Assembly (NCBI GenBank): GCA_029256705.1
Contig: JAQSXK010000002.1
Span: forward strand, 55,542 to 119,541
DNA: 64,000 bases
Origin: Clostridia bacterium
GTDB taxonomy: Bacteria; Bacillota; Clostridia; TANB77; CAG-465
Direction of reading: 5' to 3'
The translations under genes were made by a program, and so were the position numbers. Shown here in pieces: positions 1,289 to 55,228 of the stretch. Numbering within the stretch: the stretch's first letter is position 1; each line of letters starts with the position of its first letter. The notes beneath the pieces are model-generated. The model ran no database searches, was not told where the DNA came from, and was given only the letters and a program-made list of their open reading frames with translations.

Positions 1289-1300
1289 TTTATCCTCCGT

Positions 1301-6880: not shown

Positions 6881-6888
6881 TTTTACCT

Positions 6889-7373: not shown

Positions 7374-7418
7374 TATCTCATATTTTAAAAATACGTCACA
7401 AAGACTAGGAGTGAGGAA

Positions 7419-7688: not shown

Positions 7689-7712
7689 TGTTAAAAATGT
7701 AATAAAAATAAT

Positions 7713-7750
7713 AAGAACATACAATGTTATAAACTTGTATGTTCTTTCTT
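7713..7750. terminator. bidirectional rho-independent terminator between spoIIID and mgtA
   Basis: AAGAACATAC ... GTATGTTCTT 10-bp stem followed by a T-run. Confidence 0.5.
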
Positions 7751-7768
7751 ATATTTAATAAAATTTTA

Positions 7769-10396: not shown

Positions 10397-10629
10397 ATCT
10401 ATACACCCTTTTATATATGTTTCATATAAATTTTATTATATATCATTTTTATTTTTATTTCAATAAAAAAACAAAAACATTTTAAGATTCATTTACTATT
10501 ACTATTACTATTTCTATAATCAAATATAATTATACGTATATTTTTAATAAAAAACGTAACATATAAATTGATATTGTAAAAAACTACCTCAATCTATATG
10601 TTACGTTATATAATATTTCTTATTTAAAT

Positions 10630-11013: not shown

Positions 11014-11029
11014 ATTATTTTAGCGCCCC

Positions 11030-11818
11030 CTATTCATCTATATTTGCATTTTCAAAGTTCAATGCTCCATCAAATTTTTGTATTTTTATATCTTTTTCCC
11101 TAGTTATTTTAACACCTATACCAATCTCTCTTAATAAGTCTGCTACGCCGTTTTTTATATTTATAGCACTTTCTAAATACTGTGCATTACCTATAGCCTT
11201 CACAGTAAATGGTGCTGCTACTCTTTGATAATTAACTTGTATAATTGGCCCTGCACATCTAATAGCTGATGTAGCTATTACTCTTTGACCATTTATACTA
11301 ATAGCCTCTGCACCTGCTGCTTTAAGTTCATTTACAACAGTAAGTAAATCACTGTCATGTACTAGTGAATCTTGTCTAAGATCTGGTTCTAATACTTTCG
11401 TACCATCAGTTAAAACAATAACTATACCTTCCCCTTTTACGTTTACAGTTCCTGAAGATATTGATAATCTTTTTAATTCATCAGTCATTGATGATATAAG
11501 CTGACTGTTTGTTGCTGAATTTGATTTATATTCCTCAACAATTTTTACACTTTCATCATGATCTGCTTTTAAATCATTATATTTTCTTTGAAGTTGTACT
11601 AAATCATCTATAAGTTGAGATTCTCTTTTTCCTTGTAATATTTCCGTTGTTGAATTTACAGTTTTCATTTGTGCTGTTAGCATCATAGTAAGGAAAAACA
11701 TTGTAACTCCAATTAAAATATATGGCATTACTGAATGTTTCTTTACAAATCTTACTATTGCTTCTTTTGTATTATTAGAAAATATTTTTTTTAATATATC
11801 TTTTTCCAAATCTATCAA
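11030..11818 (-). CDS. DUF881 family protein (YlxW/YlxX-like, division/cell-wall associated)
   Basis: N-terminal TM, coiled-coil segment, conserved C-terminal domain; conserved pairing with sbp. Confidence 0.55.
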   Translation of the reverse strand: MIDLEKDILKKIFSNNTKEAIVRFVKKHSVMPYILIGVTMFFLTMMLTAQMKTVNSTTEILQGKRESQLIDDLVQLQRKYNDLKADHDESVKIVEEYKSNSATNSQLISSMTDELKRLSISSGTVNVKGEGIVIVLTDGTKVLEPDLRQDSLVHDSDLLTVVNELKAAGAEAISINGQRVIATSAIRCAGPIIQVNYQRVAAPFTVKAIGNAQYLESAINIKNGVADLLREIGIGVKITREKDIKIQKFDGALNFENANIDE

Positions 11819-35095: not shown

Positions 35096-38000
35096 TTATA
35101 AAAATTTTACTTCTTTTAAATATTCTATATATTTTAAAATATAATTTACGTCGATATTTGGCCATTCAAAATTCAATTCTTTCAAGAAATCTTTAGTAAA
35201 TGTTGATAATACTTTAATATTGGTCTTATATTCTAGTTCCTTATTTTTATTGAGATCTGCAATTATTCCAGATATATCTTCAGATGATTCATTAGAGTTT
35301 AAATACTTTTCCATTAATAAAGTCATATCTTGCTTACTTATAATTTTAATGTCTATTCCAATATTTTTTAATGTGTTTATTACATATCTCATCTTTGCAT
35401 GCTTATCATTAAATAGATGGAATACACTATACTCTCTTGATGTCCTAGCTAACTTCATAACAGCATCAGATGCAAAATCTATTGGTGTAAATTCCATATA
35501 AAAATCCAACAAGTTTTCTGGCATCACTTTTAAATTAATTAATGTTTTTATTCTATTTGCAAATGCATTTTCTTCAACATTTGGTTGGAATTTTCCATCT
35601 GTATATCTTCCAGTTAAATTTCCCATTCTCATTATTTTGGCATTTAATCTATTCTCAGATATCTCGTCAAGTATATATTTATCTGCTATATACTTAGTAT
35701 ATACATATACATTATCTAAGTTTTGCTCTATATATAATTTAGTTTCATCGAATTCTTTCTCTATTCCATCATTCTTTTGTTCAACTTGACCACCTTCAAT
35801 TATATTTCCAGATGTACTTAACGTTGAAATCTGAATTAACCTTTTATCGTATTTTTCACAAAAATTTACAATATTTTTAGTACCCTTTACATTTATTTTA
35901 TAGAATAATTCTAAATTTCCATAATGTTTTACATGTGCTGCAGAATTTATTACTGTATCAATATTTTTACTCAACTTAATATTAGCCTCTTCATCTGCAA
36001 TTATATTTTCATTAGTAATATCGCCTTCAACAACATGTATCCTATTATTAAGTTCATTTTCATATTTATCACCAAAGAAGAAACTCAATATTTCTTTTAT
36101 TCTTGATTCTGGATCTTCACCATTTTTACTTCTTATCAAGCAATATATTTTTCCTTTTTCATTTCTCATAAAATTATCTAATATATGTGCACCTAAAAAT
36201 CCTGTAACGCCTGCAAGAAGTACATTACCTACAGATTGTTCAGTTGGTTTATAATTTTCTAATTTATTATTCTCTAAAATTTTATTTATCTTACTATAAT
36301 CATAATCTGCAATTTCTCCGGATATTGACTCTTTTTTATTTATATTATTTAGCATATCTCCAAGTTCTCTAATAGTAGGATATTTAAAGATATCACCATA
36401 AATAATTTTTATATCCTTTGAAAGCAATTTCATAACCAAACTAGTAACTAGTAATGAATCGCCCCCTATTTCAAAAAAGTTATCATTCATGCCAATGTTT
36501 TCGACATTTAATACTTCTTTAAAACTCTCCGCCAACTCAAAATATATACCATCCAATTTTTCTGTATTACTTATAACATTTAATTTGATATCAGGTAACT
36601 TTGACTTATCTACTTTACCATTTATATTAAGTGGTAAAGTTTCTAATCTCATAAAGTAATTTGGTATCATATATAGAGGTAATTTATTTTTCAAAAAGAT
36701 TCTCAACTTTTGTTCATCTATTAAATTATTACTTGTATAATAACAAACAATACTCTTAACGTTATTTATTTCGTTAACTTGCAAATAGCATTCATTTATT
36801 TCTTTATACTTTAAAACACCCAATTGTATCTCTTCTAGTTCAATCCTAAATCCTCTTATCTTTACTTGCATATCTATCCTGCCTAAGAATTCAATATTTT
36901 TAGTATAACTTAAATATACTAAATCACCAGTCTTATATAAAATCTGATTATTCATTTTTATAAACTTTTCATTAGTCAGTTTTTCTTTATTTAAATATCC
37001 ATTAGAAACTCCATCTCCACCCACTAATAATTCGCCCGGAACATTAATTGGAGATAATAAATTACATTTATCATAGATATAGCATGTAGTATTACTTATT
37101 GGTATTCCTATAGGTATTTTGAATTCAAATCTTTTCTCTATTTTATAATAAGTCGAGAAGCTTGTATTTTCAGTTGGACCATATACACTTAATAAATCTA
37201 TATTTTTATTATTATCTAAAACTAAATTTATATGTTTTGTAGATAGAACTTCACCACCAACAAGTAATGTTCTCACATTATCAAAAATATTTTTATCATA
37301 TTCAACTATATTATTAAACAGTGCTGTTGTCAAAAAAATTACTGTTATATTATTATCAATTAGATACTGTTTTAATATCATTGGATTCAATAAATCGTCT
37401 TTTTTAATTAAATATAAAGTTAACCCATTAAGTAATGCACCAAAACACTCAAATGTAGCTGCGTCAAATGACATTGAACCTGTTTGCAATATTCTATCCG
37501 TATTCTTAAAATCTATATAATTAGTATTTTTTACTAATCTTACAACACTCTTATGCCTTACCATTACACCCTTTGGTTCACCAGTTGTTCCAGAAGTATA
37601 CATTATATAAGCTAAATCATCTATACTACTCTTAATATTTAAGTTTTTATTATCATAATTTTTAAATATATCAAATTTTGAGAATGTACTTTTATTTACT
37701 AAAACTTTAATATTAGAGTCTCTAAAAATATATTCTATTCTTTCTTTAGGATAACTCAGATCCATTGGAAGGTATATTGCTCCACATTTTAAAATTCCCA
37801 ATATTGCTATCATCATCTCAATTGATTTATCCAACATTATAGCTACAACATTACCATTTCTAACATGATTTTCAATTAAGTAATGTGCTAATTGGTTTGC
37901 TTTTTCATTTAGATCTATGTAAGTTAAACTATTATTTTCACATACTACCGCTATTTCATTTGGAGTTAAATCAACCTGTTCTTCAAATAACTGAATTATA

Positions 38001-41000
38001 GTTTTATCTTTAGGATAATTAGTATGTGTGTTATTAAAAGAATTTAAAATAAATTCCTTTTCTTCTTCTGATATTATTTCTACATCTCTTATATTAGCCT
38101 CTTTATTTTTAGTAATAAATTCTAATGCATTTAAAACGTGCATAGAAAATCTTTCGATAGTTTCATCCTTATATAGATTTGTATCATATTCTAAATTTAA
38201 ATCTATTTTTTTATCAGTTGGATATACCTCAAATGTTAAATCAAATTTAGAAGTATTAGTTTTTATTTCATCTATCTCTAATTTTGTATTTTCTAGATAT
38301 ATATCAGGTTTACCTGTATTTTGAAAAACATACATAATATTGAAGATTGGATTTCTTGAACTATCTCTCTTGATTTTTAGATTTTTAACCATTTCTTCGT
38401 ATGTATACGAATTATTTTCTAAAGTTTCTAACATTAAATTCTGAGTTTTTTGTAAGTATTCTTTAAATGATTCATTTAAATCTATTTTTACTCTATAAGG
38501 TAAAGATTTAACGAACATTCCTATTGTATTTAATTCTTGTATATGTCTTCTACCAAATGTTGCTATACCTATAATTATATCCTCGCTATAAGTATATTTA
38601 GATAACACAAAATTAAATATTGCTAAGAACACATTATTCAATGTAACATTATTTTCTTTTGCATATTCAACCAATTTTTCTTTTAATTCTGAATTTATTA
38701 TTTTTTTTATTTTTTTCCCTTCAAAAGACTTGTTACTTTTTCTAGGATAATCAGTATTAATTGAAATTACAGGCAATTCATCACTCAATTTATCTAAAAA
38801 ATATTTCTTAGATTTTGTATACTTACTTTTATCATTTTCTATTTGTATACATTGCCCAAATGTTAATATTTCATTTTTTATTTGTTTATCATTATATACA
38901 TCAATTATATCTTCTATAAGTATATTAATCGACTGCCCATCAAATATTATATGATGAAAATCCATTAAAATATTTATTTTGTCCTCTACTAAATAAAATT
39001 CAATTCTAAACAATCTTCCATTAAGTAAGTCAAACGGTTTTACGAAATTATCTTTTACTTTAATATATTCAATATTACTTAATCTAACAGCATTAATTTT
39101 TATTTTCTGTTTATCAATTTTATAATATAATTTATTTTCTTTCATATCTATTTTAGAAAACAATAATGAATGATTTAAAACACTAGTCTCTATACTTTTT
39201 ATTAATTTATCAACATTTATATTATTATTAAGTTTTATTTCTAAAGGTGTATTGTAGATAATACTTTCTGTATTATAAGAATAATTATTGAATATTGATA
39301 TTTGAGCAGGAGTTAGTAAATATTCCTCCTTTTCAGTAGGTACATTAAATATTTCAGTACTCTGTGAATACACACTTTTTTCTCTTATTCTTTTCTCTAA
39401 CATTTCAATGTTTTCACATTCATAAATATCTGTATAGGTAAAATCTATCTTATATTCATCTGATATTTCCATAGACAGTCTTATTGCGCATAAAGAATCA
39501 ATATTTTTTTTATACGAAGAATCATAATAATCAATGTTATATTTGGATAATATTTTAGATAATTTTTTATCTTTAACATTAATTTTATTAGCCTCGGTTT
39601 TATTATCATTATCTTCTTCGTCTACTAGTTCTATTAATTTTTTTCTATCTGCTTTTCCATTCATATTAAAAGGAATTTCCTCTAAAACGAACAACTCACT
39701 TGGCAACATATATTTTGGTAATGATAAACTTAATTTATCTATAATTTCTTTTTTATTATTAAATTTATCATTTATTGTTACATAACATACAATTTTATCA
39801 ATATTATTAATTTTTTTAACAACAACAGCACTTGACGTTATACAATCAATCATATTAATAGCACTTTCAATTTCTTCTATCTCAATACGTAATCCATTAA
39901 TTTTAATTTGATTATCTATTCTTCTACTATACTCTAAATCTCCATCAAAGTTATATAATACTTCATCACCAGTCTTATATACTTTCATACCAAATAATAT
40001 ATCAAATTTACTTGATACTGCATTATCAACATTTATATATCCTAATCCAACTCCAGCACCTGCTATAGCTAATTCTCCATTAACACCCATCGGTAAAATT
40101 CTATTTTTTCTATCTATTATAAATGATTTAGTATTTGGAATTGGCTTTCCAATGTTAACTTCATCATAACTTTTGATTAATTTCATTGACGAGCATACTG
40201 TAGTTTCTGTTGGGCCATAGCCATTAAATATATCTATATTTTTATCTTGCAGAATATTTAATACATTTTTATTGAATACTTCACCTGCTATTGTCAATCT
40301 CTTTATTGAATTTAGCTTCTCAATGTTATCTTCTTTTTGTAGTATTAAATTCAATTTTGTTGGTGTTATAAACATAACTTCTATAGAATACTTTTCTATA
40401 GTATCTACAATTTTATATGGAGAATTTGATTCTTCATCATTTAAAAATACTAATTTAATTCCGAATAGCAAAGGCGTTATAGTTTCTATAACAAACATAT
40501 CAAAAAAGTATTTTGTAATAGATAATGCTACTTTGCAATAATCAAGTTTTTTTACATCATTAGCAGCAAACATTAAATTAATTAAATTGTTATGTGAAAT
40601 CATAACTCCTTTAGGTTTACCTGTTGTTCCAGAAGTATAAATTACATATACTAAATCTTCTCCTTTATTTACTTTTGTAAGATTATTACTTAAATAATTA
40701 GAGTAATTAAAATTATTTATATTTATGGTTTCAACTTTATTATTAATATTATCTATATTTGTAATTATCAACTTTGAACTGCTATTTTCTAAAATATATT
40801 TTATTCTATCGATTGGGAATTCTGGATCTATAGGTAAATATGCAGCACCAGACTTTAAAATCCCCAATATTGAAATAATCATTTCAAATGATCTTTTAAA
40901 TATTAATGATACGATATCCCCAGATTTTACTTTTTTTTCTTCTCTTAAAAAATGTGCGAGACTATTAGATTTTTCATTTAATTCTAGATATGTCATTTGT

Positions 41001-42430
41001 TTATTTTCAAAAATAATTGCTACATCATTTGGATGTTTTTTTACCTGTTGCTCAAATAAATCAATAACAGTCATATTAGTAGGATATTTTGTGTCAGTAT
41101 TATTAAATTCACATAATATTTTATCTTCTTCATCTTCACTCATTACACGAATGTTTTCAACATTAATATCTAAATCTTTAATTGCATTTTTCATAATGGC
41201 AATGAGTCTTGTATTTAAATATTCAATCTCAATTTCATCAAATAGATCTACTAAATAATCATAGTGCAAATTAAAAATACCAGTATTGTCTATATCCATA
41301 ATGTGAATCTCTAAATCATCTTGTATATTACCTGAAAATAACCATTCGGTAGAAAAATCTTCATTATCTAAAATATTTGATCTTGTGTTTTGATAAGATA
41401 ATACAAAATTATATATTTTGCCCTTCACATCTGTTGTGTTATGTATATATTCTAATGTTTTTTCAATTGGATATTTTTGATGTCTAAATAGTGACATAGT
41501 ATCATTACCTAATTGTTTAACTAAATCTATAAATTTTATATTTTCTTCTACTTTTATGCGTGTTGGCATAGTGGAAATAAACATTCCCAGCATCTGTTTT
41601 TCTTTAAAATTTGATCTATTTAACACAGGGGTACCTATTATAAAATCATTTTCATTTTTTATTCTATAAATATATGTGGCAAGCGCACCTAAAAACAACG
41701 TATATGCAGATATTTTATTAACTTTTATATATTCTACTATTTTATCATTAGTTTCTTTATCTAACGTTATAGAATATCTATTAGCTCTTGTATTTAATTT
41801 TTTCTTAGAAGTTTTTAATGAAACAGGTGCTTTTATATCTTTTAAATATTCTCTCCAAAACTGTTCATCTTTCAAATATTTTTCTGAAGAAGTATATTCT
41901 TTTTCTGATTCTATAAAATCTATATACGATGGTTTATTAGCTTCTTCATGTATATTATTTATAGCATTATCATACATTTTTAAGAGTTGATTTGCTACTT
42001 GTCCAAATGTCCATGCATCGGAAATAATATGATGTAACTTAACAAATACACATCCATCATTATTATTATATCTAACTATTTTAATATCATATAATTTATT
42101 ATTTAAAAAATCAAAAGGAGTATTAGAATTTATTTCAAAAAAATTTTCAATATCTTCTTGGCTTTTTTTACTCATGTCAAAATATTCTACATCTTCATAT
42201 ATATAATCTTCAAAAATTTGATACACAGAATTATCCTCTTCAAAAATCTTAATTCTTAGAGCATCATTTAATTCAATAAGTTTATTTACTATTTTATTAC
42301 ATATTTTTTCATCAAATTTAGATTTGATTTGAAGCAATCCAGCTATAGTATTCATAGAAGTATTTTTATTAAATTTCTCTACTAAATATATGTTATTCTC
42401 AGGAAAAGTCAATTCATATCTATTATTCAT
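35096..42430 (-). CDS. bimodular non-ribosomal peptide synthetase with terminal reductase: C-A-T-C-A-T-R
   Basis: C1 HHIISDAWTFG (about 42030); A1 core YTSGTTGKPKG (about 40610), NGYGPTETT, YKTGDEV; T1 NIDSL (about 39500); C2 HHIIFDGQS (about 38950); A2 YTSGTTGEPKGVMV (about 37575), YGPTENT, YKTGDLV; T2 GGDSLLVTSL (about 36455); R domain GxxGxxG VLLAGVTGFLGAHIL (about 36200) and YTKYIADK. Start placed at the second ATG (42430), which has a GAGGGG RBS; the upstream in-frame ATG at 42445 is also possible. Confidence 0.95.
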   Translation of the reverse strand: MNNRYELTFPENNIYLVEKFNKNTSMNTIAGLLQIKSKFDEKICNKIVNKLIELNDALRIKIFEEDNSVYQIFEDYIYEDVEYFDMSKKSQEDIENFFEINSNTPFDFLNNKLYDIKIVRYNNNDGCVFVKLHHIISDAWTFGQVANQLLKMYDNAINNIHEEANKPSYIDFIESEKEYTSSEKYLKDEQFWREYLKDIKAPVSLKTSKKKLNTRANRYSITLDKETNDKIVEYIKVNKISAYTLFLGALATYIYRIKNENDFIIGTPVLNRSNFKEKQMLGMFISTMPTRIKVEENIKFIDLVKQLGNDTMSLFRHQKYPIEKTLEYIHNTTDVKGKIYNFVLSYQNTRSNILDNEDFSTEWLFSGNIQDDLEIHIMDIDNTGIFNLHYDYLVDLFDEIEIEYLNTRLIAIMKNAIKDLDINVENIRVMSEDEEDKILCEFNNTDTKYPTNMTVIDLFEQQVKKHPNDVAIIFENKQMTYLELNEKSNSLAHFLREEKKVKSGDIVSLIFKRSFEMIISILGILKSGAAYLPIDPEFPIDRIKYILENSSSKLIITNIDNINNKVETININNFNYSNYLSNNLTKVNKGEDLVYVIYTSGTTGKPKGVMISHNNLINLMFAANDVKKLDYCKVALSITKYFFDMFVIETITPLLFGIKLVFLNDEESNSPYKIVDTIEKYSIEVMFITPTKLNLILQKEDNIEKLNSIKRLTIAGEVFNKNVLNILQDKNIDIFNGYGPTETTVCSSMKLIKSYDEVNIGKPIPNTKSFIIDRKNRILPMGVNGELAIAGAGVGLGYINVDNAVSSKFDILFGMKVYKTGDEVLYNFDGDLEYSRRIDNQIKINGLRIEIEEIESAINMIDCITSSAVVVKKINNIDKIVCYVTINDKFNNKKEIIDKLSLSLPKYMLPSELFVLEEIPFNMNGKADRKKLIELVDEEDNDNKTEANKINVKDKKLSKILSKYNIDYYDSSYKKNIDSLCAIRLSMEISDEYKIDFTYTDIYECENIEMLEKRIREKSVYSQSTEIFNVPTEKEEYLLTPAQISIFNNYSYNTESIIYNTPLEIKLNNNINVDKLIKSIETSVLNHSLLFSKIDMKENKLYYKIDKQKIKINAVRLSNIEYIKVKDNFVKPFDLLNGRLFRIEFYLVEDKINILMDFHHIIFDGQSINILIEDIIDVYNDKQIKNEILTFGQCIQIENDKSKYTKSKKYFLDKLSDELPVISINTDYPRKSNKSFEGKKIKKIINSELKEKLVEYAKENNVTLNNVFLAIFNFVLSKYTYSEDIIIGIATFGRRHIQELNTIGMFVKSLPYRVKIDLNESFKEYLQKTQNLMLETLENNSYTYEEMVKNLKIKRDSSRNPIFNIMYVFQNTGKPDIYLENTKLEIDEIKTNTSKFDLTFEVYPTDKKIDLNLEYDTNLYKDETIERFSMHVLNALEFITKNKEANIRDVEIISEEEKEFILNSFNNTHTNYPKDKTIIQLFEEQVDLTPNEIAVVCENNSLTYIDLNEKANQLAHYLIENHVRNGNVVAIMLDKSIEMMIAILGILKCGAIYLPMDLSYPKERIEYIFRDSNIKVLVNKSTFSKFDIFKNYDNKNLNIKSSIDDLAYIMYTSGTTGEPKGVMVRHKSVVRLVKNTNYIDFKNTDRILQTGSMSFDAATFECFGALLNGLTLYLIKKDDLLNPMILKQYLIDNNITVIFLTTALFNNIVEYDKNIFDNVRTLLVGGEVLSTKHINLVLDNNKNIDLLSVYGPTENTSFSTYYKIEKRFEFKIPIGIPISNTTCYIYDKCNLLSPINVPGELLVGGDGVSNGYLNKEKLTNEKFIKMNNQILYKTGDLVYLSYTKNIEFLGRIDMQVKIRGFRIELEEIQLGVLKYKEINECYLQVNEINNVKSIVCYYTSNNLIDEQKLRIFLKNKLPLYMIPNYFMRLETLPLNINGKVDKSKLPDIKLNVISNTEKLDGIYFELAESFKEVLNVENIGMNDNFFEIGGDSLLVTSLVMKLLSKDIKIIYGDIFKYPTIRELGDMLNNINKKESISGEIADYDYSKINKILENNKLENYKPTEQSVGNVLLAGVTGFLGAHILDNFMRNEKGKIYCLIRSKNGEDPESRIKEILSFFFGDKYENELNNRIHVVEGDITNENIIADEEANIKLSKNIDTVINSAAHVKHYGNLELFYKINVKGTKNIVNFCEKYDKRLIQISTLSTSGNIIEGGQVEQKNDGIEKEFDETKLYIEQNLDNVYVYTKYIADKYILDEISENRLNAKIMRMGNLTGRYTDGKFQPNVEENAFANRIKTLINLKVMPENLLDFYMEFTPIDFASDAVMKLARTSREYSVFHLFNDKHAKMRYVINTLKNIGIDIKIISKQDMTLLMEKYLNSNESSEDISGIIADLNKNKELEYKTNIKVLSTFTKDFLKELNFEWPNIDVNYILKYIEYLKEVKFL

Positions 42431-42485
42431 TATATTACCCCTCATTTGTATACAATTATAAAATAATTATATATCAAAAAAATAC

Positions 42486-48224: not shown

Positions 48225-49949
48225 ATGCTTATTTTTATGGGAATCATCGGTGCTATACTTTTTATGTCTATTAACCCATTAAGGTGGAAAAATGATCTTA
48301 CAAAGGAAGAATTATTACCTATAATTCTAGAACAAGCTATACGGTTTATAGTAGGTGGCATTTGGTCATATATAGGTATATACTATGTACTTATTGATGC
48401 GACTTTTTCAGGTTTTGCCATCTGGTGGGCTTTGCCAATATTTATTGCCATTGTCATAGATGGATTTGTTATTAAAAATTCATATGATATTAAAAATTCA
48501 GAAACAATTGGTAAGATATGGCTAGGACTAGGAATATTAGGCTGCGTCATCTACATATTTATGATTACCATATATCCTGCATCAACAATGAAAGAACGTT
48601 ATAAATTTGTAAAAGAATTTGTAACTGTCACTCAAAGTAATATTCCTGATACAGATACAAATAATATAGGCATTGTATCTGAAAAAACTGCTAAACGTAC
48701 AGGTGGTATGTCACTATCCAATTTTGATAACTCATCAATGTACAAAGATGGTACCTATTCAAAACAAATAGTAAATAACGATACAAAATGGGTATCACCA
48801 ATTGAATTTGAAAGTAGTGTCAAGGCGATTGGAAGTGATAAAAAAACACCTGGTTATCTAATAGTTGACTCAAATAATCCAGATGAAAATGCAGTTTCAG
48901 TTAAATCTAATTATACTTATATGTCTTCAGCCGTATTTAGCAGAGACCTCGCTAGACTTGTTCACTTTAAGTATCCAACAAAAATAGTAATTGATTCATG
49001 GTTCGAATTAGATGATAACGGAAAAGGTAACTGTATAGTTGCCCTAGGACAGAAGAAATTTTTTAGATTTTTAAATGTTCAAGATTCCATTGCTATTGTT
49101 AATCCTGATACAGGAGAAATGACCAAATACAATATGGATGAAATTCCTGAGTGGGTAGATATAGCTTTTTCATCAAACCTTGCTGAAAAATATGCTAATA
49201 TCTATGGTGGAAATAGTAAAGGCTTCTGGGCTAGGTATTTTGCAGCATCAGATCAATTTAAACTTACAACATGGACATGGGAAACTGAAAACGGTAACAT
49301 TTCCGGTGATGATGCTTGGAGTATTATAACAGATTCAAACAATAACATGTGGTATACTTCAGACTGTGAAAATCTTAATAGTTCCAATAAAAGTATAGTT
49401 GGATATATTATGATTTCAACAAAAACAGGAAAAATTACTTATTACGATAAGGTAAGAGGAGTAAATGGAAAAGCCTTTGGAGAAAATGCCATTCAATTAT
49501 TTAAAGAAAAAGTTGGCTGGGTACCTGTAGAACCTACCATATACACTATATTTGAACAAATAACCTGGTACTCGACAATCGTTGATGAAAATGGTCAAAT
49601 TCAAAAATATGTATTAGGTAAAGTATCCAACGGAGAAATTGCTTACGGTGATACCTTCAACGGTGCAATTAATGCATATAAAAAACTATTATCTGCAGAT
49701 GGCCTTGTTACAGCACCTTCAGCTTCATCTGAAAGTAAAAAAGTAACTGGATTAGTTGAAAGAATTATTGTAGGAAATCCAACAAAAATCCTCATACAAA
49801 ATAGTGATAAAATTTTCGTTATTGAGAATGAAGTTTCGCCATATGCTCAATTTACAGTGAATGGCGATAATATTGAAATTTCGTATAACGATACAAATAG
49901 TACAGAAGTATATGCATACGAATTCTTCAACAAGTCTCTAAACAAATAA
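48225..49949 (+). CDS. large membrane-anchored protein with extracytoplasmic domain, hypothetical
   Basis: Four N-terminal TM helices followed by a soluble domain of about 450 aa with no recognised motif. Confidence 0.5.
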   Translation: MLIFMGIIGAILFMSINPLRWKNDLTKEELLPIILEQAIRFIVGGIWSYIGIYYVLIDATFSGFAIWWALPIFIAIVIDGFVIKNSYDIKNSETIGKIWLGLGILGCVIYIFMITIYPASTMKERYKFVKEFVTVTQSNIPDTDTNNIGIVSEKTAKRTGGMSLSNFDNSSMYKDGTYSKQIVNNDTKWVSPIEFESSVKAIGSDKKTPGYLIVDSNNPDENAVSVKSNYTYMSSAVFSRDLARLVHFKYPTKIVIDSWFELDDNGKGNCIVALGQKKFFRFLNVQDSIAIVNPDTGEMTKYNMDEIPEWVDIAFSSNLAEKYANIYGGNSKGFWARYFAASDQFKLTTWTWETENGNISGDDAWSIITDSNNNMWYTSDCENLNSSNKSIVGYIMISTKTGKITYYDKVRGVNGKAFGENAIQLFKEKVGWVPVEPTIYTIFEQITWYSTIVDENGQIQKYVLGKVSNGEIAYGDTFNGAINAYKKLLSADGLVTAPSASSESKKVTGLVERIIVGNPTKILIQNSDKIFVIENEVSPYAQFTVNGDNIEISYNDTNSTEVYAYEFFNKSLNK

Positions 49950-49996: not shown

Positions 49997-50142
49997 ATAC
50001 TTATATACTATAACATTATTTAGCTTATTATCTAATATTCCTGTCATATCTCTCTGACTATTTCTTAAATAATACTATTAATAATCATTATATTTGAAAT
50101 CAAGTTGTTATATATTCTCATAGAATCCAAACAATATTGCAA

Positions 50143-51078
50143 TTAAATAATTTTAAATAAATCTGTTGAAAGATATCTTTCACCTGTATCAGGCAATATT
50201 ACTACGATGTTCTTCCCTTTATTTTCAGATCTAATTGCAATTTTGGTAGCAGCAAAAAGTGCTGCACCCGATGATATACCTACTAATATTCCTTCATTTA
50301 ATGCAAGAAGTTTAGATGTCTCAAATGCTTCTTCATTACTTACTTTAAATACTTCATCAATTACTTCAATATTTAAAATATCTGGTACAAAACCAGCTCC
50401 AATTCCTTGTATTTTGTGAGGACCTTTGGTACCTCCGGATAAAACCGGTGAAGCAAGTGGTTCTACAGCAATAATCTGTATTTGTGGATTTTTTTTCTTT
50501 AATACTTCACCTACGCCTGTAATAGTTCCTCCTGTTCCTACTCCCGCTATAAAAATATCAATATTTTCATCTGTGTCATTTAAAATTTCGATAGCAGTTG
50601 TCTCTCTATGAACTTTTGGATTAGCAAGATTTTTAAATTGTTGAGGCATAAAAGAATTCGGTGTTTGAGCTAATAACTCTTCTGCTTTTTTTATTGCACC
50701 CCCCATACCATCCGGTCCAGGTGTTAAAACAAGTTCTGCACCCAATGCACGTAAAAAATCTCTTCTCTCAACACTCATTGTTTCAGGCATTGTAAGAATA
50801 ACTTTATACCCTTTTGATGCAGCAACAATTGCAAGACCAATACCAGTATTTCCACTTGTAGGCTCAATAATTACAGTATCTTTTTTTAATAGACCTTTTT
50901 CTTCTGCATCCTTAACCATTGCGTATGCAATTCTGTCTTTAACACTACCACCAGGGTTAAAATACTCAAGTTTGGCTATGATTTTAGCTTGTAAATTTAA
51001 TGCTTTTTCATAGTTATTGAGTTCAACCAAAGGTGTGTTACCAATCAATTGTGTTATACTACTAGCAATTTTTGACAT
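50143..51078 (-). CDS. cysK: cysteine synthase A (O-acetylserine sulfhydrylase)
   Basis: PLP-Lys motif [17 protein letters not shown] glycine loop, TSGNTG; start at the ATG at 51078 preceded by AGGAGGG. Confidence 0.9.
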
Positions 51079-51462
51079 TATATCCCTCCTAAACATAATA
51101 TTATTTCGGAAACTCATGCTCCGAAATTATCAGGTCCTTTTAATAAATTTATACCATGATACACATAATATGAATAGATGTATATAAATATGCAGAATAT
51201 CTGTAAAAACACCACCTTCACTACTGAGGGAGCAAAAATTTACAGTAATAAGTGTGTTTATTATAATAAAAAAGATAGCCAATTTAACTTGACTATCTAT
51301 AATGTTAATTGTTTGTTAATCATATATGTACTATATAATAATTACACACTATACTTTACTATTTGATTTTTTAATTTTCAAAGATATCAATACTATTATT
51401 TAATCAATATTCTTTTATCTAAAATATAATTTCTAAACATTATATTCAATTTTATCAAAATT

Positions 51463-51790
51463 TTAAAAATCTTCATGTGTAGAATAAATTATATCTTTCT
51501 TTTTTAACTTTCTTTCATAAAGTTTTTCATAATCTTCTATTAATGCAATTGTGTTCTTCAATATTTCTTCCAAAGCTTCTTCTTTTGTTTTACCACATCC
51601 TGAAATACTATCAATTGTACCATCATTATGATTTTTTATTTGTATATTAGATACTCCAATATATCCACTAATCGCCTGTTCGAATATTTTTATTCTAAAT
51701 TTATCATAATGTAATTTATCATATGTCTATATTTCATATTCATCCACCAATTTCTTTATTGATCCAATATTGTCTATCTTAATATCTTTC
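51463..51790 (-). pseudogene. frameshifted HicB/UPF0150-like antitoxin fragment
   Basis: A reading frame with no ATG encodes ...GYIGVSNIQIKNHNDGTIDSISGCGKTKEEALEEILKNTIALIEDYEK..., resembling the HicB N-terminal domain; an adjacent frame carries a short N-terminal piece. Confidence 0.3.
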
Positions 51791-51817
51791 CAACTTTTCA
51801 AATAATCACCCTTTCAA

Positions 51818-52555
51818 TCATCGTATTCCAAACGAAATAATCTTTCCATCTTTAGTTATATCAATATATTTCCCAGATTTTTTATATCTTACAACACCTT
51901 CTGTTACTACTTGTACCAAACTTTTTTCTGCTCGCTTTAAATTTGATTGAAAACCAATTGCTTTGTTTATATAATTTTCTAAACTTGTTGCGCCCACTTC
52001 TGCTCCGTGCTTTTCAAAATGATACTTAACCGATTACTCAGCAGTTTTAAAACTTCCTTTTCCCCAACTGTTAATATTTACACTACAAGTATTATGAACT
52101 AAAACAGAATTTTTACTAACAAAATAAGTATGCCAATCTTCAACTTCAAAGTTATAGACTTTTATCTTATTTTTTTAAATGTTCGATAGATACTTTTTCT
52201 ATATAACTAATAGTATTTGAATATCCCGAGATTCTATCATTTTCCCTTAAGTTTTTTGCTTCTACCCAACCTTTATCTAATATCCAAAATGGGTGTTCTA
52301 AAGTTGTTTTTATTTCTTCTCCATTTATATATAAGTGTACCAAATTTTCAGTTTCATTAATAAATAAATTTTTTACTTTTTTTAGTCCTTTTTCTTTTGT
52401 GTCCGTATTTTCAGAGTATACCTCGTCTCCTACTATTATTTCACTTATTTGTTTATATCCGCTACTAGTTAATATTTTGGATTATTTAAAAAATAAGTAT
52501 ACATATTATTATTTGATAATGCTCCTAATACACATACTATTTCGTCAGCGTCCAT
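51818..52555 (-). pseudogene. disrupted polymorphic-toxin C-terminal cassette (PT-Hint domain plus CT toxin), multiple frameshifts/stops
   Basis: Minus-strand fragments translate to ...TLEHPFWILDKGWVEAKNLRENDRISGY... and KVYNFEVEDWHTYFVSKNSVLVHN (Hint C-terminal signature), followed in another frame by SVKYHFEKHGAEVGATSLENYINKAIGFQ... (CT toxin-like); no intact ORF of 60 aa or more. Confidence 0.5.
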
Positions 52556-52593
52556 AAATCACCGAATTCAGGGTTGTAATCTCAGAAATAGTA

Positions 52594-52821
52594 CTATTCG
52601 CTAATACTATACTTCTTAACTTCAGTTCTAAACATTAGTTTTCCGCAATATTGACATACTTGTGTGGATCCATCAACTATAAATTCTCTACCTCCACATT
52701 TTTCACTACATACTGCATATGCAATATATATATCTTTTGGAAATTCTATATTACTAACTTCCGGATATTCTTCTAGTGGATATGCCTCTGCTTCATAATT
52801 ACATTCTTTATTTATCTTCAT
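52594..52821 (-). CDS. small zinc-ribbon-like protein (CSEKCGG ... CQYCGK), hypothetical
   Basis: 75 aa with two Cys pairs (CSEKC, CQYC); located in the accessory region downstream of the toxin remnant. Confidence 0.35.
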   Translation of the reverse strand: MKINKECNYEAEAYPLEEYPEVSNIEFPKDIYIAYAVCSEKCGGREFIVDGSTQVCQYCGKLMFRTEVKKYSISE

Positions 52822-52894
52822 ATTAGTTTCCTCCTTGCTATGATATAGGTATAAGATTTCTTGATGTAAATAAATTACTATTCTTAAAAATTTC

Positions 52895-53305
52895 TTATTC
52901 TATATTAGCGATACTAATTTTCTCACATATTATACTTACAGTATCTCCTGAACTAAAAGTAAATAAAGTCGATATATACTTGTTTTCTGGATTTCTTTTA
53001 AACAATGAATATGGATATTGGCTTTTTTCTATTCCTTCAATATATAACAATTCTTTCATTTTCTTTTCGTCAGTTATCAACTCCCAATCTATTATCCTAT
53101 TATCACTATGACCCCAAAGTTCTATTCCTATAATCTCGCAATATATAACATTCTCAAACAACAAATCATAATTTTTATTTATAAATTCATTACATAATAT
53201 TATATCTATTTTTTTTGAACTATAATCGTATTTAAATGAATTTATATTTGAATCATGTAAATGTATACTTTCAACTTTTTCTCTACTATCATAATTAATA
53301 ATCAT
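52895..53305 (-). CDS. small cytoplasmic protein, candidate orphan immunity protein
   Basis: 136 aa, acidic, no TM, no catalytic motif; sits beside the polymorphic-toxin remnant and the tRNA. Confidence 0.3.
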   Translation of the reverse strand: MIINYDSREKVESIHLHDSNINSFKYDYSSKKIDIILCNEFINKNYDLLFENVIYCEIIGIELWGHSDNRIIDWELITDEKKMKELLYIEGIEKSQYPYSLFKRNPENKYISTLFTFSSGDTVSIICEKISIANIE

Positions 53306-53498
53306 TCTATCCCTCCTTAATTAAGATAAATTTAATTTTTAAAGTATATTTTAATTTTATCCTTATCGATAAATGTATTATATACCAATATTATGTATAA
53401 TTTTGTCGAAATATGTAATAATATATAAAGTTTATAAAAAATAAAATATTGGCATAGAAATATTTTTTAATATTTTCTATAAACTTTAAGATTAAATA

Positions 53499-53527
53499 TT
53501 GACAAATATAAGAATATATGTTATCAT
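53499..53527 (+). promoter_or_regulatory. sigma-A promoter (TTGACA-17-TATCAT) for tRNA-Leu
   Basis: TTGACA at 53499-53504, 17-nt spacer, TATCAT at 53522-53527; the tRNA starts 15 nt downstream. Confidence 0.45.
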
Positions 53528-53541
53528 ATTAGAGTATTAAT

Positions 53542-53626
53542 GCGAGTATGGCGGAACTGGCAGACGCGCCAGACTTAGAATCTGGTACCAACCGGTGTGG
53601 AGGTTCAAGTCCTCTTACTCGCACCA
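53542..53626 (+). tRNA. tRNA-Leu (anticodon UAG), class II with long variable arm, encoded CCA
   Basis: Acceptor GCGAGTA/TACTCGC, D-arm, anticodon stem CCAGA/TCTGG with loop CTTAGAA (anticodon TAG), long variable arm, T-arm GGTTCAAGTCC, discriminator A plus CCA. Confidence 0.9.
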
Positions 53627-53657
53627 ATATTAAGTAGCAATTATTTATTGCTACTTT
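53571..53657. repeat. direct repeat copy 1 (tRNA-Leu 3' half plus terminator hairpin)
   Basis: About 68 bp from the anticodon loop to 12 nt past the CCA match 55142-55209 with 3 mismatches; the downstream hairpin is also conserved in diverged form. Confidence 0.7.
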
Positions 53658-53668
53658 TTTATTTTGTA

Positions 53669-53697
53669 TTGACAAAATTTTAAGAACAATGTATACT
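53669..53697 (+). promoter_or_regulatory. sigma-A promoter (TTGACA-17-TATACT) for the island gene at 53804
   Basis: TTGACA at 53669-53674, TATACT at 53692-53697. Confidence 0.4.
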
Positions 53698-53803
53698 ATT
53701 GTTATAAAATATTGCAAATATTTATTTTTTATAATTTCATAAAAAAATATACCAAAAGTTGTAAAATACAGTATAGTTATAAGAAATATGAAAAGGAGTT
53801 TAT

Positions 53804-54724
53804 ATGGAATATGTAATTTTAGTATCTCTATGGATATATATATTTACTTTACTTTTTAAGTATCAGTTTCAACATAAAGTTAATAAAGACTTGACATACT
53901 ACAGAGAATATAAGTTTTTAGAACATTCGCCAATTTTTTGGTATTATTTATTAAACAAAAGATTAAATAATAATACCATAATTGCAACTATACTATACTA
54001 TTTAGTAAAAGGATACATCTCTATGGAAGTGATTTCAAATAACGGAGAAAAAGATTATGAATTTAAAATTGTAAAAGATTTAAATTCAATACCTGAGGAG
54101 GATAATATTTGTTTAAAAGTATTTTTTAATACAGAATTAGAGATAAATACAATAAAAAAATTAAGTGATTTTAACAAGATGCTGTTATGTGAAAAAACAT
54201 TTGGTCATATAAAAGATGTATATAAATCAATAATTAATGTAATAAAAGAGAAATTATTAAATGAGAATAAGATAAAACAAATATCAAGAAGACTTAATAT
54301 TATAAATATAATTTTATGTGCTGTAGTAGTAATACTTGCAAATTTATTTCGCTCAACTTCTTCGGCAATTTTAGATATATATGTAATGTTAGTTGGAATA
54401 AGTATATTCATTACCTTCTTAAAACGAAATTCGTGGTTAGCGGCAATATTGTATGGAATTATATGTCCTATGATTGTCTTGTATAATACTGATTACCATT
54501 ATTTTATTAGTAATTTAATCATACAATTATCTTGTATATTTTTAATATATGTAGATGACTTATTATTTAAAAGAATTAATTCAGATAATTTAGAAAGTAA
54601 AGCTTATGGATTAAAAAAATATATAACGGAATTTGCGATTTTTGAAGATAAACCGCTGGAGCAGATTGCACTTTGGGAAGAATTCTATGTATATGCGGTT
54701 GTATTTGGGGTGAAAAAAATATGA
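53804..54724 (+). CDS. membrane protein, DUF2207-like (island-borne paralog of 46833..47681)
   Basis: Several TM helices; C-terminal EQIALWEEFYVYAVVFGV resembles the DUF2207 C-terminal motif; shares YxRExxxxSP... pattern with the gene at 46833..47681. Confidence 0.45.
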   Translation: MEYVILVSLWIYIFTLLFKYQFQHKVNKDLTYYREYKFLEHSPIFWYYLLNKRLNNNTIIATILYYLVKGYISMEVISNNGEKDYEFKIVKDLNSIPEEDNICLKVFFNTELEINTIKKLSDFNKMLLCEKTFGHIKDVYKSIINVIKEKLLNENKIKQISRRLNIINIILCAVVVILANLFRSTSSAILDIYVMLVGISIFITFLKRNSWLAAILYGIICPMIVLYNTDYHYFISNLIIQLSCIFLIYVDDLLFKRINSDNLESKAYGLKKYITEFAIFEDKPLEQIALWEEFYVYAVVFGVKKI

Positions 54725-55077
54725 GTATATTAGATTTTATTTATATATTTTTTAGTACATATATGTTAATATGGATAGTATTGATTACTTATTATATTAA
54801 AATTTATAAATTATTTGATTCACTTTATATAAGTATTGTATTTAAAATTATAGGTGGATTATTATGTGCATTAATAATTGCTATTTTGACTAGCACTTTA
54901 ATTTATTTTGCATATTACGTAAAATCATTAGTCAGTGATTATATGTCTAACGTGGTTCTTTTATCAAGTTTACTATTTTCAATAATGTTATCGGTTGGTT
55001 GTTTAAATCTTCTTAAAAGAATATTTTATAAGCAAATAGTAACTGAATATAAAAGTATATATAGTAGGTCTATATAA
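54721..55077 (+). CDS. small polytopic membrane protein
   Basis: ATGA start/stop overlap with the upstream gene; four hydrophobic helices. Confidence 0.35.
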   Translation: MSILDFIYIFFSTYMLIWIVLITYYIKIYKLFDSLYISIVFKIIGGLLCALIIAILTSTLIYFAYYVKSLVSDYMSNVVLLSSLLFSIMLSVGCLNLLKRIFYKQIVTEYKSIYSRSI

Positions 55078-55141
55078 GAAGTATTAAATAAAGCTTTGTA
55101 GCAAGAGATATATTTTAAGTGTGTAAGAATTCCATACTCTA

Positions 55142-55228
55142 AGACTTAGAATCTGATACCAACCGGTGTGGAAGTTCAAGTCCTCTTACTCACACCAATA
55201 TTAAGTAGTAATGAATAATTACTATTTT
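55142..55228. repeat. direct repeat copy 2 (partial tRNA-Leu 3' half, candidate attR)
   Basis: AGACTTAGAATCTGATACCAACCGGTGTGGAAGTTCAAGTCCTCTTACTCACACCAATATTAAGTAG plus a hairpin; lacks the tRNA 5' half, so it is not a functional tRNA. Confidence 0.7.

What the first reader, a model, noticed from the sequence alone, without database searches (positions are those of the whole stretch)
51463..53305. Decayed polymorphic-toxin C-terminal cassette (PT-Hint plus CT toxin) with orphan immunity-like genes next to the tRNA
The 51.4-52.6 kb stretch has no ORF of 60 aa or more, but minus-strand fragments translate to a Hint (pretoxin) domain (HPFWILDKGW...; VYNFEVEDWHTYFVS..VLVHN) followed by a toxin-like module (KYHFEKHGAEVG...) broken by frameshifts and stops. 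A frameshifted HicB-like fragment lies beside it, and two intact small genes follow (a 75-aa CxxxC...CxxC protein and a 136-aa acidic protein). Such Hint-CT remnants with orphan immunity genes mark polymorphic toxin (LXG/Rhs/WapA-type) loci. No full-length toxin is present here, so this looks like a displaced orphan cassette array at a tRNA-associated accessory hotspot.
Basis: partly seen in the sequence, partly recalled or inferred. Interest (0 to 1): 0.5.

Follow-up and report, generated by a model that had tools for sequence, protein, structure and literature searches.

The report
Dead orphan Rhs toxin cassette
This stretch is the decayed remnant of a bacterial "Rhs" warfare-toxin locus: a dead spare toxin tip and its dead antidote gene, next to an intact antidote gene whose big toxin gene was cleanly deleted. 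It is a well-known kind of locus, so it is ordinary.

Summary
On the minus strand of 51463-52593 lies a pseudogene. It has an Rhs-core tail relic, a PT-HINT domain (Pfam E=6e-27) and a 90-aa C-terminal toxin. It is broken by an internal deletion of about 89 aa, two frameshifts and two in-frame stops. The best intact relative is a Clostridium Rhs-tail/HINT/CT protein (58-68% identity).

The toxin models confidently as a colicin-D-like BECR RNase fold. The "HicB-like" gene downstream is its cognate immunity gene, found directly downstream of the toxin in 4/4 close loci and 25/47 genome loci. It is killed by one TAG codon, not a frameshift, and its fold does resemble the HicB N-domain.

The intact 136-aa gene is not just immunity-like. 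In a sister strain it sits 20 bp after a full-length 2491-aa Rhs toxin. The window lacks that toxin at a 12-13 bp microhomology junction.

A more distant relative has glmU-tRNA-Leu-cysK with nothing between, so the region is accessory.

This is a new member of a known kind and of low to moderate interest. The only mildly new item is that this widespread toxin/immunity family has no Pfam or NCBIfam model.

The parts
52895..53305 (-). Intact 136-aa gene (imm136). By position it is the cognate immunity gene of a full-length Rhs toxin that is present in the sister strain and absent here.
   Evidence: ORF. In L007 the 99%-identical gene starts 20 bp after the stop of a 2491-aa Rhs gene. The only other homolog, P0122 (87 aa), lies two genes downstream of another 2667-aa Rhs in L008. 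No Pfam, NCBIfam or PDB sequence hit.
52594..52821 (-). Intact 75-aa CxxxC...CxxC (zinc-ribbon-like) gene of unknown role. It is co-inherited with imm136.
   Evidence: ORF. It is present directly after imm136 in the sister strain L007. It gives only a sub-threshold Pfam FtrD-like hit (19 bits against a cutoff of 26.3). It has no homolog in any other fetched toxin locus.
53308..53320 (-). Junction of the roughly 7.6-kb rhs deletion, at the microhomology TTAAGGAGG(G/T)ATA.
   Evidence: L007 1-400 equals window 53704-53305, and L007 7986-8836 equals window 53320-52472. The two alignments overlap by 16 nt. The sequences at both L007 copies and at the window junction were read.
52472..52593 (-). 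Relic A: the tail of an Rhs core (YYF*DYNPEFG / FMDADEIV..NNMYTYFLNNP) with one in-frame stop and one frameshift. This is the 5' homology arm of the orphan cassette.
   Evidence: Translations. The alignment to the Rhs tails of P0001, P0002 and the L007 Rhs scores 70-90, against 22 +/- 4 for shuffles (z 12-15). TIGR03696 Rhs_assc_core scores only 14.9 bits, below threshold. The L007 copy is 98% identical and continues into NNPVNMLD*DG, the DPxG motif.
52091..52481 (-). PT-HINT pretoxin domain pseudogene. It lacks the N-terminal CFTxxT (Cys1) and is frameshifted next to an A-run on the coding strand at about 52167-52180.
   Evidence: Pfam PF07591 E=6.2e-27. tblastn against P0001 gives 58% over 106 aa in one frame, and the C-terminal part of the domain falls in a second HSP in another frame (68% over 113 aa, shared with the toxin). 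Cys is nearly invariant in homologs and absent here.
51821..52090 (-). 90-aa C-terminal toxin pseudogene with a colicin-D-like BECR RNase fold. A TAA nonsense codon at 52036-52034 replaces Lys/Glu.
51463..51801 (-). Cognate immunity pseudogene (112 codons, TTG start). A single TAG at 51729-51727 replaces a conserved Trp. The fold resembles the HicB N-domain.
51273..51298 (-). Terminator-like hairpin between the dead cassette and cysK.
   Evidence: Consensus scan only.
50143..51117 (-). cysK (context). It is an ancestral neighbour of glmU/tRNA-Leu, is now flanked by Rhs-derived DNA on both sides, and is missing from this site in the sister strain.
   Evidence: Pfam PALP E=6e-79. L059 has glmU-tRNA-Leu-cysK. 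L007 lacks window 50139-52471.
49997..50138 (-). Relic B: an Rhs YD-repeat relic (FKYNDY**YYLRNSQRDMTGILDNKLNNVIVYKYKKSG). It is the truncated start of another orphan fragment.
   Evidence: 75.6% nt identity over 123 nt to L007 rhs 7041-7162. tblastn against P0001 residues 9-38. Translation.
53542..53626 (+). tRNA-Leu(tag) bordering the island.
   Evidence: ARAGORN. Rfam RF00005, 58 bits.
55142..55198 (+). 57-nt partial duplicate of the tRNA-Leu 3' part, followed by a similar hairpin. With the full tRNA it forms a direct repeat around the DUF2207_C and 134-aa genes.
   Evidence: blastn. Alignment A5.

Best explanation
The region is what remains of an Rhs-type polymorphic-toxin locus inserted between glmU/tRNA-Leu and cysK in an uncultured, 26%-GC Clostridia bacterium.

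SHOWN (anatomy, read 5'->3' on the minus strand):
- A deletion scar where a full-length, signal-peptide-bearing Rhs toxin gene (2491 aa in a sister strain) used to be.
- That toxin's intact immunity gene (136 aa) and an intact 75-aa zinc-ribbon-like gene.
- An orphan toxin-tip cassette: Rhs-core tail, then PT-HINT, then a 90-aa colicin-D-like BECR toxin.
- The cassette's cognate 112-aa immunity gene with a HicB-N-like fold.

SHOWN (state of the cassette):
- It has no delivery domain and no start codon.
- An internal deletion removed the DPxG cleavage motif, the linker and the HINT Cys1.
- It carries two frameshifts and two stops.
- Its immunity gene has one nonsense codon.

INFERRED (how an intact version works):
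- The Rhs shell encloses the tip.
- Autoproteolysis at DPxG and by the HINT domain releases it.
- The tip cleaves RNA, probably tRNA, in a neighbouring cell, using the Lys-His pair of the invariant KHG motif.
- The immunity protein binds and blocks the toxin in sibling cells.
- Orphan cassettes are silent spares that can be recombined onto the main rhs gene through the shared core tail.

INFERRED (the present state):
- The spare and its immunity gene are non-functional and decaying neutrally.
- The only parts likely still useful are imm136, and perhaps orf75. They now sit directly behind the former rhs upstream region and would protect this toxin-less strain from sister strains that still fire the Rhs toxin.
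For: - PT-HINT E=6e-27. tblastn against P0001 E=2e-76 with frame changes and stops.
- Rhs tail relic z=15 against shuffles.
- Homologs P0001-P0003 sit in arrays of Rhs fragments and toxin/immunity pairs, or directly after a full-length Rhs.
- The immunity gene is conserved directly downstream in 4/4 close loci and 25/47 genome loci.
- The toxin tip is found on Rhs+HINT, CdiA (Fil_haemagg_2, PT-VENN), LXG+HINT and PT-TG scaffolds.
- A Lys-His in the first helix is the active-site arrangement described for colicin-like BECR RNases (preprint 10.64898/2026.08.28.747851). K27 and H28 are invariant in the family and retained in the window copy.
- Sister strain L007 has tRNA-Leu side, rhs (2491 aa; DUF6531, Ricin-B lectin, RHS repeats), imm136, orf75, relic A.
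- Deletion junction microhomology.
- Identical sequence in independent assemblies.
- L059 has glmU-tRNA-Leu-cysK with no island.
Against: - RNase activity, the substrate, and neutralisation by the immunity protein are inferred from fold and gene order only. Nothing was assayed.
- The toxin has no detectable sequence similarity to colicin D or any PDB chain and no Pfam Colicin_D hit.
- The Rhs tail relic alone is below the TIGR03696 threshold.
- imm136 is assigned by position in two loci only. It has just two homolog clusters and no structural or family support.
- The direction of the rhs presence/absence difference (loss here or gain in L007) is inferred from microhomology, not proven.
- Whether the rest of this genome carries a full-length rhs with a matching tip could not be checked.
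- The source is a metagenome-assembled genome.
Confidence: 0.85

Rival explanations
1. The gene is intact and the breaks are sequencing or assembly errors, for example homopolymer miscalls or MAG mis-joins.
For: One frameshift lies next to an A-run at about 52167-52180. The source is a MAG. Rhs repeats are hard to assemble.
Against: There are at least five separate lesions: two stops, two frameshifts and a roughly 89-aa deletion that removes Cys1 and DPxG. No N-terminal Rhs body or start codon lies upstream; the 75-aa gene ends 1 nt before relic A. JGI and Logan assemblies are 100% identical over 2.9 kb. The relic A lesions (stop and frameshift) are shared with sister strain L007, which is 98% identical there. 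The 12-13-nt junction microhomology is shorter than assembler k-mers.
Confidence: 0.03
2. The window state is ancestral. This lineage never had the full-length rhs here, and the sister strain gained it by insertion upstream of a pre-existing orphan immunity gene.
For: Only two states were seen. Orphan immunity genes without toxins are common in polymorphic-toxin loci (titles and abstracts listed).
Against: In L007 the immunity gene starts 20 bp after the Rhs stop, as cognate pairs do. The window junction is a hybrid of the two L007 copies of TTAAGGAGG(G/T)ATA, as expected for microhomology-mediated deletion. Rhs relics A and B show that Rhs DNA has long been at this site.
Confidence: 0.1
3. 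The Hint segment is the remnant of an intein or homing element, and the neighbouring small gene is a decayed HicAB toxin-antitoxin module unrelated to interbacterial toxins.
For: Pfam Intein_splicing 38.5 bits and TIGR01443 intein_Cterm 24 bits. The immunity model's best structural matches are HicB N-domains.
Against: PT-HINT scores far higher (95 bits). No extein host protein flanks it. It is preceded by an Rhs tail and followed by a toxin tip seen on Rhs, CdiA and LXG scaffolds. There is no HicA gene. No HicB Pfam hit appears for any of five family members, even at E<=10. The protein lacks a C-terminal DNA-binding domain. It is always paired with this BECR toxin.
Confidence: 0.02
4. The cassette is still functional through recoding or phase variation: slippage at the A-run, stop read-through, or recombination onto a main rhs gene elsewhere that would bypass the 5' lesions.
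For: All 19 invariant toxin residues and all invariant immunity residues are retained, so decay is recent. One frameshift lies next to an A-run.
Against: Recombination through the tail could not repair the missing HINT Cys1 and DPxG, the TAA in the toxin or the TAG in the immunity gene. An active toxin without immunity would be lethal. Relic A is too diverged from the only known main rhs tail for blastn to detect.
Confidence: 0.03

Closest known systems
Orphan rhs-CT/rhsI modules downstream of main rhs genes (Salmonella Typhimurium LT2, E. coli, Dickeya; PMC3150448 and PMC3967940, titles and abstracts seen; details from my own knowledge)
   Same: A toxin-tip gene fragment begins inside the conserved Rhs core tail, lacks a delivery domain and start codon, is followed by its own immunity gene, and lies downstream of the main toxin/immunity pair. 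The shared core tail allows recombination onto the main gene.
   Different: The host is a Gram-positive Clostridia bacterium, with a Sec-signal, Ricin-lectin Rhs (WapA-like) rather than a T6SS PAAR/VgrG-linked Rhs. A PT-HINT domain lies between core and tip. Both the orphan toxin and its immunity gene are dead, and the main rhs is deleted.
Bacillus subtilis WapA (Sec-dependent wall-associated Rhs-repeat toxin with a tRNase tip and WapI immunity; my own knowledge)
   Same: The sister strain's 2491-aa protein has an N-terminal signal/TM segment, carbohydrate-binding repeats, RHS repeats, a variable C-terminal tip and an adjacent small immunity gene.
   Different: No sequence comparison with WapA was run. 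The domain set (DUF6531, Ricin-B lectin) differs from WapA's wall-binding repeats. No such protein is present in the window itself.
Colicin D tRNase domain and CdiA-CT of E. coli O32:H37 (PDB 1TFK, 1V74, 5ZNM, 8EY4)
HicB antitoxin N-terminal domain (PDB 6G1C, 6G1N, 4P78, 6U0I)
   Different: No HicB Pfam match, no HicA partner and no DNA-binding C-terminal domain. It is encoded downstream of its toxin, as immunity genes are.
Orphan immunity gene arrays left after effector displacement or loss (Vibrio cholerae T6SS, PMC5361080; Serratia Rhs, PMC10539506; titles and abstracts)
   Same: An immunity gene is retained without its toxin, which plausibly protects against non-self attack.
   Different: Here the loss is a single clean 7.6-kb deletion seen by direct comparison of two strains 94-98% identical in the shared DNA. 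The protective role is untested.

Membership tests
Rhs-type polymorphic toxin, orphan CT/immunity cassette | The 5' end is homologous to the conserved Rhs core tail (YYxxRYYxPxxGRF ... NLYxYxxNNP). | tested here: met
   Relic A at 52593-52472 aligns to the Rhs tails of P0001, P0002 and L007 with scores 70-90 against shuffles of 22 +/- 4. TIGR03696 alone is sub-threshold (14.9 bits against 32.5).
Rhs-type polymorphic toxin, orphan CT/immunity cassette | DPxG autoproteolysis motif at the core/tip boundary. | tested here: not met
   The window goes from NNP(K) directly into ILT of the HINT domain. The sister-strain copy of the same relic keeps NNPVNMLD*DG. The motif has been deleted from this copy, in keeping with a pseudogene.
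Rhs-type polymorphic toxin, orphan CT/immunity cassette | A variable C-terminal toxin domain that is also found on other delivery scaffolds. | tested here: met
   47 genome loci encode the tip. Scaffolds include Rhs+PT-HINT, Fil_haemagg_2/PT-VENN (CdiA), LXG+PT-HINT and PT-TG.
Rhs-type polymorphic toxin, orphan CT/immunity cassette | A cognate immunity gene immediately downstream of the toxin tip. | tested here: met
   Homologs of window 51801-51463 directly follow the toxin in L001, L004, L005 and L006 and in 25 of 47 genome loci.
Rhs-type polymorphic toxin, orphan CT/immunity cassette | No delivery domain or start codon of its own, and located downstream of a main rhs/immunity pair. | tested here: met
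   There is no ORF or start upstream; the 75-aa gene abuts relic A. The main rhs is absent from the window, but in sister strain L007 it lies immediately upstream of imm136-orf75-relic A.
PT-HINT pretoxin domain (PF07591) | Profile match above the gathering score. | tested here: met
   95 bits against a cutoff of 27.7, profile positions 2-136 of 137.
PT-HINT pretoxin domain (PF07591) | An N-terminal nucleophile Cys (CFTxxT) and a C-terminal HN for autoprocessing. | tested here: not met
   VLVHN is present, but the CFTxxT segment, whose Cys is nearly invariant in homologs, is missing.
LXG / T7SS toxin | An N-terminal LXG domain on the toxin or its closest relatives. | tested here: not met
   No LXG hit in the window. 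The closest relatives carry Rhs tails. A sub-threshold LXG hit (19.8 bits against a cutoff of 26.5) was seen only in a distant Enterococcus carrier of the same tip.
Colicin D-like BECR RNase | alpha-alpha-beta4 BECR fold with a Lys-His in the first helix. | tested here: met
Colicin D-like BECR RNase | Sequence membership in Pfam Colicin_D (PF11429) or similarity to solved members. | tested here: not met
   No Pfam hit at E<=1. phmmer and hmmsearch against PDB gave nothing relevant.
Colicin D-like BECR RNase | tRNA anticodon-loop cleavage activity. | not testable with these tools
   This needs a toxicity assay and tRNA northern blots or sequencing with a repaired tip.
HicAB toxin-antitoxin | HicB sequence family membership, a HicA partner, and a C-terminal DNA-binding domain. 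| tested here: not met

The most novel reading that the evidence does not exclude
The dead cassette belongs to a widespread toxin/immunity family that has no Pfam or NCBIfam model. The toxin is a 90-aa colicin-D-like BECR RNase tip with an invariant KHG motif. It is paired with a 105-115-aa immunity protein with a HicB-N-like fold. The pair is carried on Rhs, CdiA, LXG and PT-TG scaffolds in Firmicutes, Proteobacteria, Planctomycetes, Acidobacteria and Fusobacteria. It may have a new RNA target or a new mode of inhibition. Separately, the clean deletion of rhs with retention of its immunity gene may mark a natural 'immune non-shooter' genotype that coexists with toxin-bearing sister strains.
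Probability: 0.45. Interest if true: 0.35.

Novelty: new member of a known kind. Interest (0 to 1): 0.25.

Why it matters
As it stands this is a textbook relic of interbacterial warfare genes, and it changes nothing fundamental. Two modest points have value.

1. It leads to a widespread toxin/immunity pair that has no Pfam or NCBIfam model. The toxin has a colicin-D-like fold, the immunity protein a HicB-like fold, and confident models exist for both. The pair could be characterised biochemically.

2. Comparing two strains 94-98% identical in the shared DNA catches Rhs locus turnover in the act. One strain made a precise deletion of the 7.6-kb toxin gene and kept its immunity gene. The other strain lost the spare cassette together with cysK. 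This is useful for understanding how toxin-less but immune strains arise in natural communities.

Tried and rejected
- The word-indexed homolog search with the repaired immunity protein found nothing. The family was recovered instead from gene neighbourhoods and from the exhaustive HMMER search.
It was redone with proteins.
- Metagenome scans for closer or intact copies of this cassette found nothing, both with the protein and with an exact 26-mer.
- The AFDB50 fold library was unavailable.
- Sequence searches of PDB with the toxin, the toxin profile, the immunity profile, the L007 Rhs tip and imm136 gave only chance-level hits.
- Rfam found only the tRNA. There is no riboswitch or leader upstream of cysK.
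- The 2449-aa ORF at 35096-42445 was checked as a possible full-length toxin. It is an NRPS.
- L007's 111 unique nt after the DPxG motif show no detectable similarity to the P0001 linker. It therefore could not be decided whether both strains derive from one longer orphan cassette.
- PDB entry 8EY4 has no describing paper in the library.
- A link between cysK and the tRNase toxin, by analogy with CysK-activated CdiA-CT EC536 (PMC11724271), was considered. It was set aside as coincidence, because cysK is the ancestral neighbour of tRNA-Leu in L059.
Full report
**1. What is in the sequence**

The window has 26% GC and carries sporulation genes (YabQ, DivIC). Exact protein look-ups place it in a metagenome-assembled "Clostridia bacterium". 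The 75-aa and 136-aa proteins are MDF2865631 and MDF2865632.

Between 51463 and 52593 no ORF reaches 60 aa.

Joined across the frame changes, the translation hits Pfam PT-HINT at E=6.2e-27. That is 95 bits against a cutoff of 27.7, covering profile positions 2-136 of 137.

The best database relative is P0001, a 419-aa "polymorphic toxin-type HINT domain-containing protein" of Clostridium sp. JNZ J1-5. It matches 90% of the query at 62% identity. tblastn of P0001 against the whole window gives two HSPs in different frames, with a combined E=2e-76:
- 68% identity over 113 aa, with an in-frame stop.
- 58% identity over 106 aa.

**2. Anatomy of the pseudogene**

The pseudogene has three parts, read 5'->3' on the minus strand.

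*Relic A (52593-52472).* It reads YYF\*DYNPEFG, then shifts frame to FMDADEIVCVLGALSNNNMYTYFLNNP.
- This is the conserved end of an Rhs core (YYxxRYYNPxxGRF...NLYxYxxNNP).
- Alignment to the Rhs tails of P0001, P0002 and the sister-strain Rhs scores 70-90. Shuffled sequences give 22 +/- 4, so z is 12-15.
- NCBIfam Rhs_assc_core alone is sub-threshold at 14.9 bits.

*PT-HINT domain (52481-52091).* Compared with P0001, about 89 residues are missing between NNP and ILT.
- The missing stretch holds the DPxG cleavage motif, the linker and the CFTxxT segment with the nearly invariant nucleophile Cys.
- A frameshift lies next to an A-run at about 52167-52180.

*90-aa C-terminal domain (52090-51821).* A TAA at 52036-52034 stands where homologs have Lys or Glu.

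All 19 residues invariant in the toxin family are retained in the window copy. Inactivation therefore looks recent.

JGI (L002) and Logan (L003) contigs are 100% identical to the window over 2.9 kb. The relic A lesions are shared with a second strain. The breaks are not single-assembly errors.

**3. The downstream "HicB-like" gene**

It runs 51801-51463 with a TTG start and is not frameshifted. Its only lesion is a TAG at 51729-51727, at a position that is Trp in three of four close homologs and Tyr in the fourth.

It is the cognate immunity gene of the dead toxin:
- It is 54, 49, 35 and 36% identical to the small gene that directly follows P0001, P0002, P0003 and P0004 in their contigs.
- An HMM of these sequences hits the ORF directly downstream of the toxin tip in 25 of 47 GTDB genome loci.

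The gene is an immunity gene, not part of a HicAB module.

**4. The toxin tip**

It has no Pfam, NCBIfam or PDB sequence match.

An AlphaFold model from ten family members has pLDDT 93.6. It shows two helices followed by a four-stranded sheet.

| Method | Match | Score |
|---|---|---|
| Foldseek | 8ey4_A | TM 0.64 |
| Foldseek | Colicin D tRNase | TM 0.60 |

This is the BECR RNase fold of the colicin-like group. A recent classification describes that group's active site as a His in the first helix preceded by a Lys. The family's invariant K27 and H28 (KHG motif) fit this description. RNase activity, probably tRNase activity, is inferred and not shown.

The tip is a true polymorphic-toxin module. 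It occurs in 47 genome loci across Firmicutes, Proteobacteria, Planctomycetes, Acidobacteria and Fusobacteria. Its scaffolds are Rhs+PT-HINT, CdiA-type (Fil_haemagg_2, PT-VENN), LXG+PT-HINT and PT-TG.

**5. The two intact genes and the missing main toxin**

The 136-aa protein has only two homolog clusters.

The 99%-identical one lies in a sister strain (L007). The DNA that strain shares with the window is 94-98% identical. There the gene starts 20 bp after a full-length 2491-aa Rhs protein. That protein has an N-terminal signal/TM segment, DUF6531, Ricin-B lectin repeats, RHS repeats and a C-terminal tip with no family match.

DNA alignment between L007 and the window:

| L007 | Window |
|---|---|
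| 1-400 | 53704-53305 |
| 7986-8836 | 53320-52472 |

The window therefore lacks exactly the rhs gene. The junction is a hybrid of two copies of TTAAGGAGG(G/T)ATA. The simplest reading is a microhomology-mediated deletion of about 7.6 kb. That deletion left the immunity gene behind the former rhs upstream region.

The other homolog (87 aa) lies two genes after a different 2667-aa Rhs. The 136-aa protein is thus best read as an Rhs immunity protein that has outlived its toxin.

The 75-aa CxxxC...CxxC protein follows imm136 in both strains. It has no informative homolog, and its role is unknown.

**6. Locus history**

The homology between L007 and the window breaks exactly after NNP, at window 52472. 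It resumes at 50138. L007 keeps NNPVNMLD\*DG but lacks the HINT-CT pseudogene, its immunity pseudogene and cysK.

Just downstream of cysK, both strains carry relic B (50138-49997). This is an Rhs YD-repeat fragment, 75.6% identical at the nucleotide level to the L007 rhs.

A more distant relative (L059, 84-88% nt identity) has rmuC-glmU-tRNA-Leu-cysK with nothing in between. Three conclusions follow:
- cysK is ancestral at this site.
- The roughly 4 kb between cysK and glmU in the window is accessory.
- L007 most likely lost cysK by deletion.

A 57-nt duplicate of the tRNA 3' part at 55142-55198 adds to this.

**7. How it works, and what is left**

The following is established knowledge about Rhs toxins, used here as inference.

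An intact version would be exported, and its Rhs shell would enclose the tip. Cleavage at DPxG and by the HINT domain would free the tip, which would then cut RNA in a neighbouring cell. The immunity protein protects kin.

Orphan cassettes are silent spares that can be recombined onto the main gene through the shared core tail (PMC3150448 and PMC3967940).

In this window the spare and its immunity gene are dead and the main toxin is gone. Only imm136, and possibly orf75, can still act, presumably as defence against sister strains that still carry the Rhs toxin.

**8. Comparison and verdict**

This is an Rhs/WapA-type orphan cassette relic, not LXG. The membership tests are met except for the features destroyed by decay (DPxG and the HINT Cys1).

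It works like colicin D / CdiA-CT BECR RNases but is not a sequence member of Colicin_D. Its immunity protein looks like the HicB N-domain but is not a HicB.

It is a new member of a known kind, and interest is low to moderate. The mildly novel elements are two:
- A widespread toxin/immunity family without a Pfam or NCBIfam model.
- The directly observed loss of the toxin gene with retention of its immunity gene.

Noticed in passing
window 55142-55198 (+), with hairpin to about 55235; compare 53542-53656: A 57-nt partial copy of the 3' part of tRNA-Leu(tag), followed by a similar terminator hairpin. With the full tRNA it forms a direct repeat that brackets the DUF2207_C (53804-54724) and 134-aa (54673-55077) genes. 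This looks like the att duplication left by an element integrated at the tRNA 3' end. No integrase is present.
   Followed up: partly
window 53464-55204 compared with L059 7699-7921 and L057 11433-11609: In two relatives tRNA-Leu is co-directional with glmU. In the window, and in sister strain L007, the tRNA block is inverted relative to glmU. The cause of the inversion is unexplained.
   Followed up: no
window 49997-50138 (-): An Rhs YD-repeat relic (FKYNDY**YYLRNSQRDMTGILDNKLNNVIVYKYKKSG) lies immediately after the cysK stop and runs into the bidirectional terminator. cysK is therefore flanked by Rhs-derived DNA on both sides.
   Followed up: partly
window 50143-51117 (-), compared with L007 8837-8947: The sister strain lacks cysK at this site (window 50139-52471 is missing). 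cysK next to a dead tRNase-like toxin recalls the CysK-activated CdiA-CT of E. coli 536. However, L059 shows cysK is simply the ancestral neighbour, so this is probably coincidence.
   Followed up: partly
window 48225-49949 (+), compared with L007 9121-10845: The 574-aa membrane-anchored protein of unknown function (no significant Pfam hit) is split into 179-aa and 305-aa ORFs in the sister strain. It is possibly a pseudogene there.
   Followed up: no
window 35096-42445 (-): A 2449-aa two-module NRPS (A-T-C-A-T-reductase type: AMP-binding, Condensation, PP-binding, NAD_binding_4) sits next to a 7TM histidine kinase (33266-35077). It is unrelated to the toxin locus.
   Followed up: no
L004 (JGI 3300060283) 309-11004 and L001 (Clostridium sp. 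JNZ J1-5) 478-11190: The closest intact homologs of the cassette sit in long arrays of orphan toxin/immunity pairs (Ntox28+CdiI_3, Colicin_D-like, Tox-REase-9, several Rhs tail fragments). These arrays are good material for studying cassette turnover in Clostridia.
   Followed up: no
L007 7400-7981 (C-terminal ~180 aa of the 2491-aa Rhs): The tip of the sister strain's full-length Rhs (ending ...FEWDEDLANTTHYHILTNGQRSNPNIHYAPLTLVPEPFASMYFGF) has no Pfam or PDB sequence match. Its activity is unknown, and it is the presumed target of the window's 136-aa immunity protein.
   Followed up: partly
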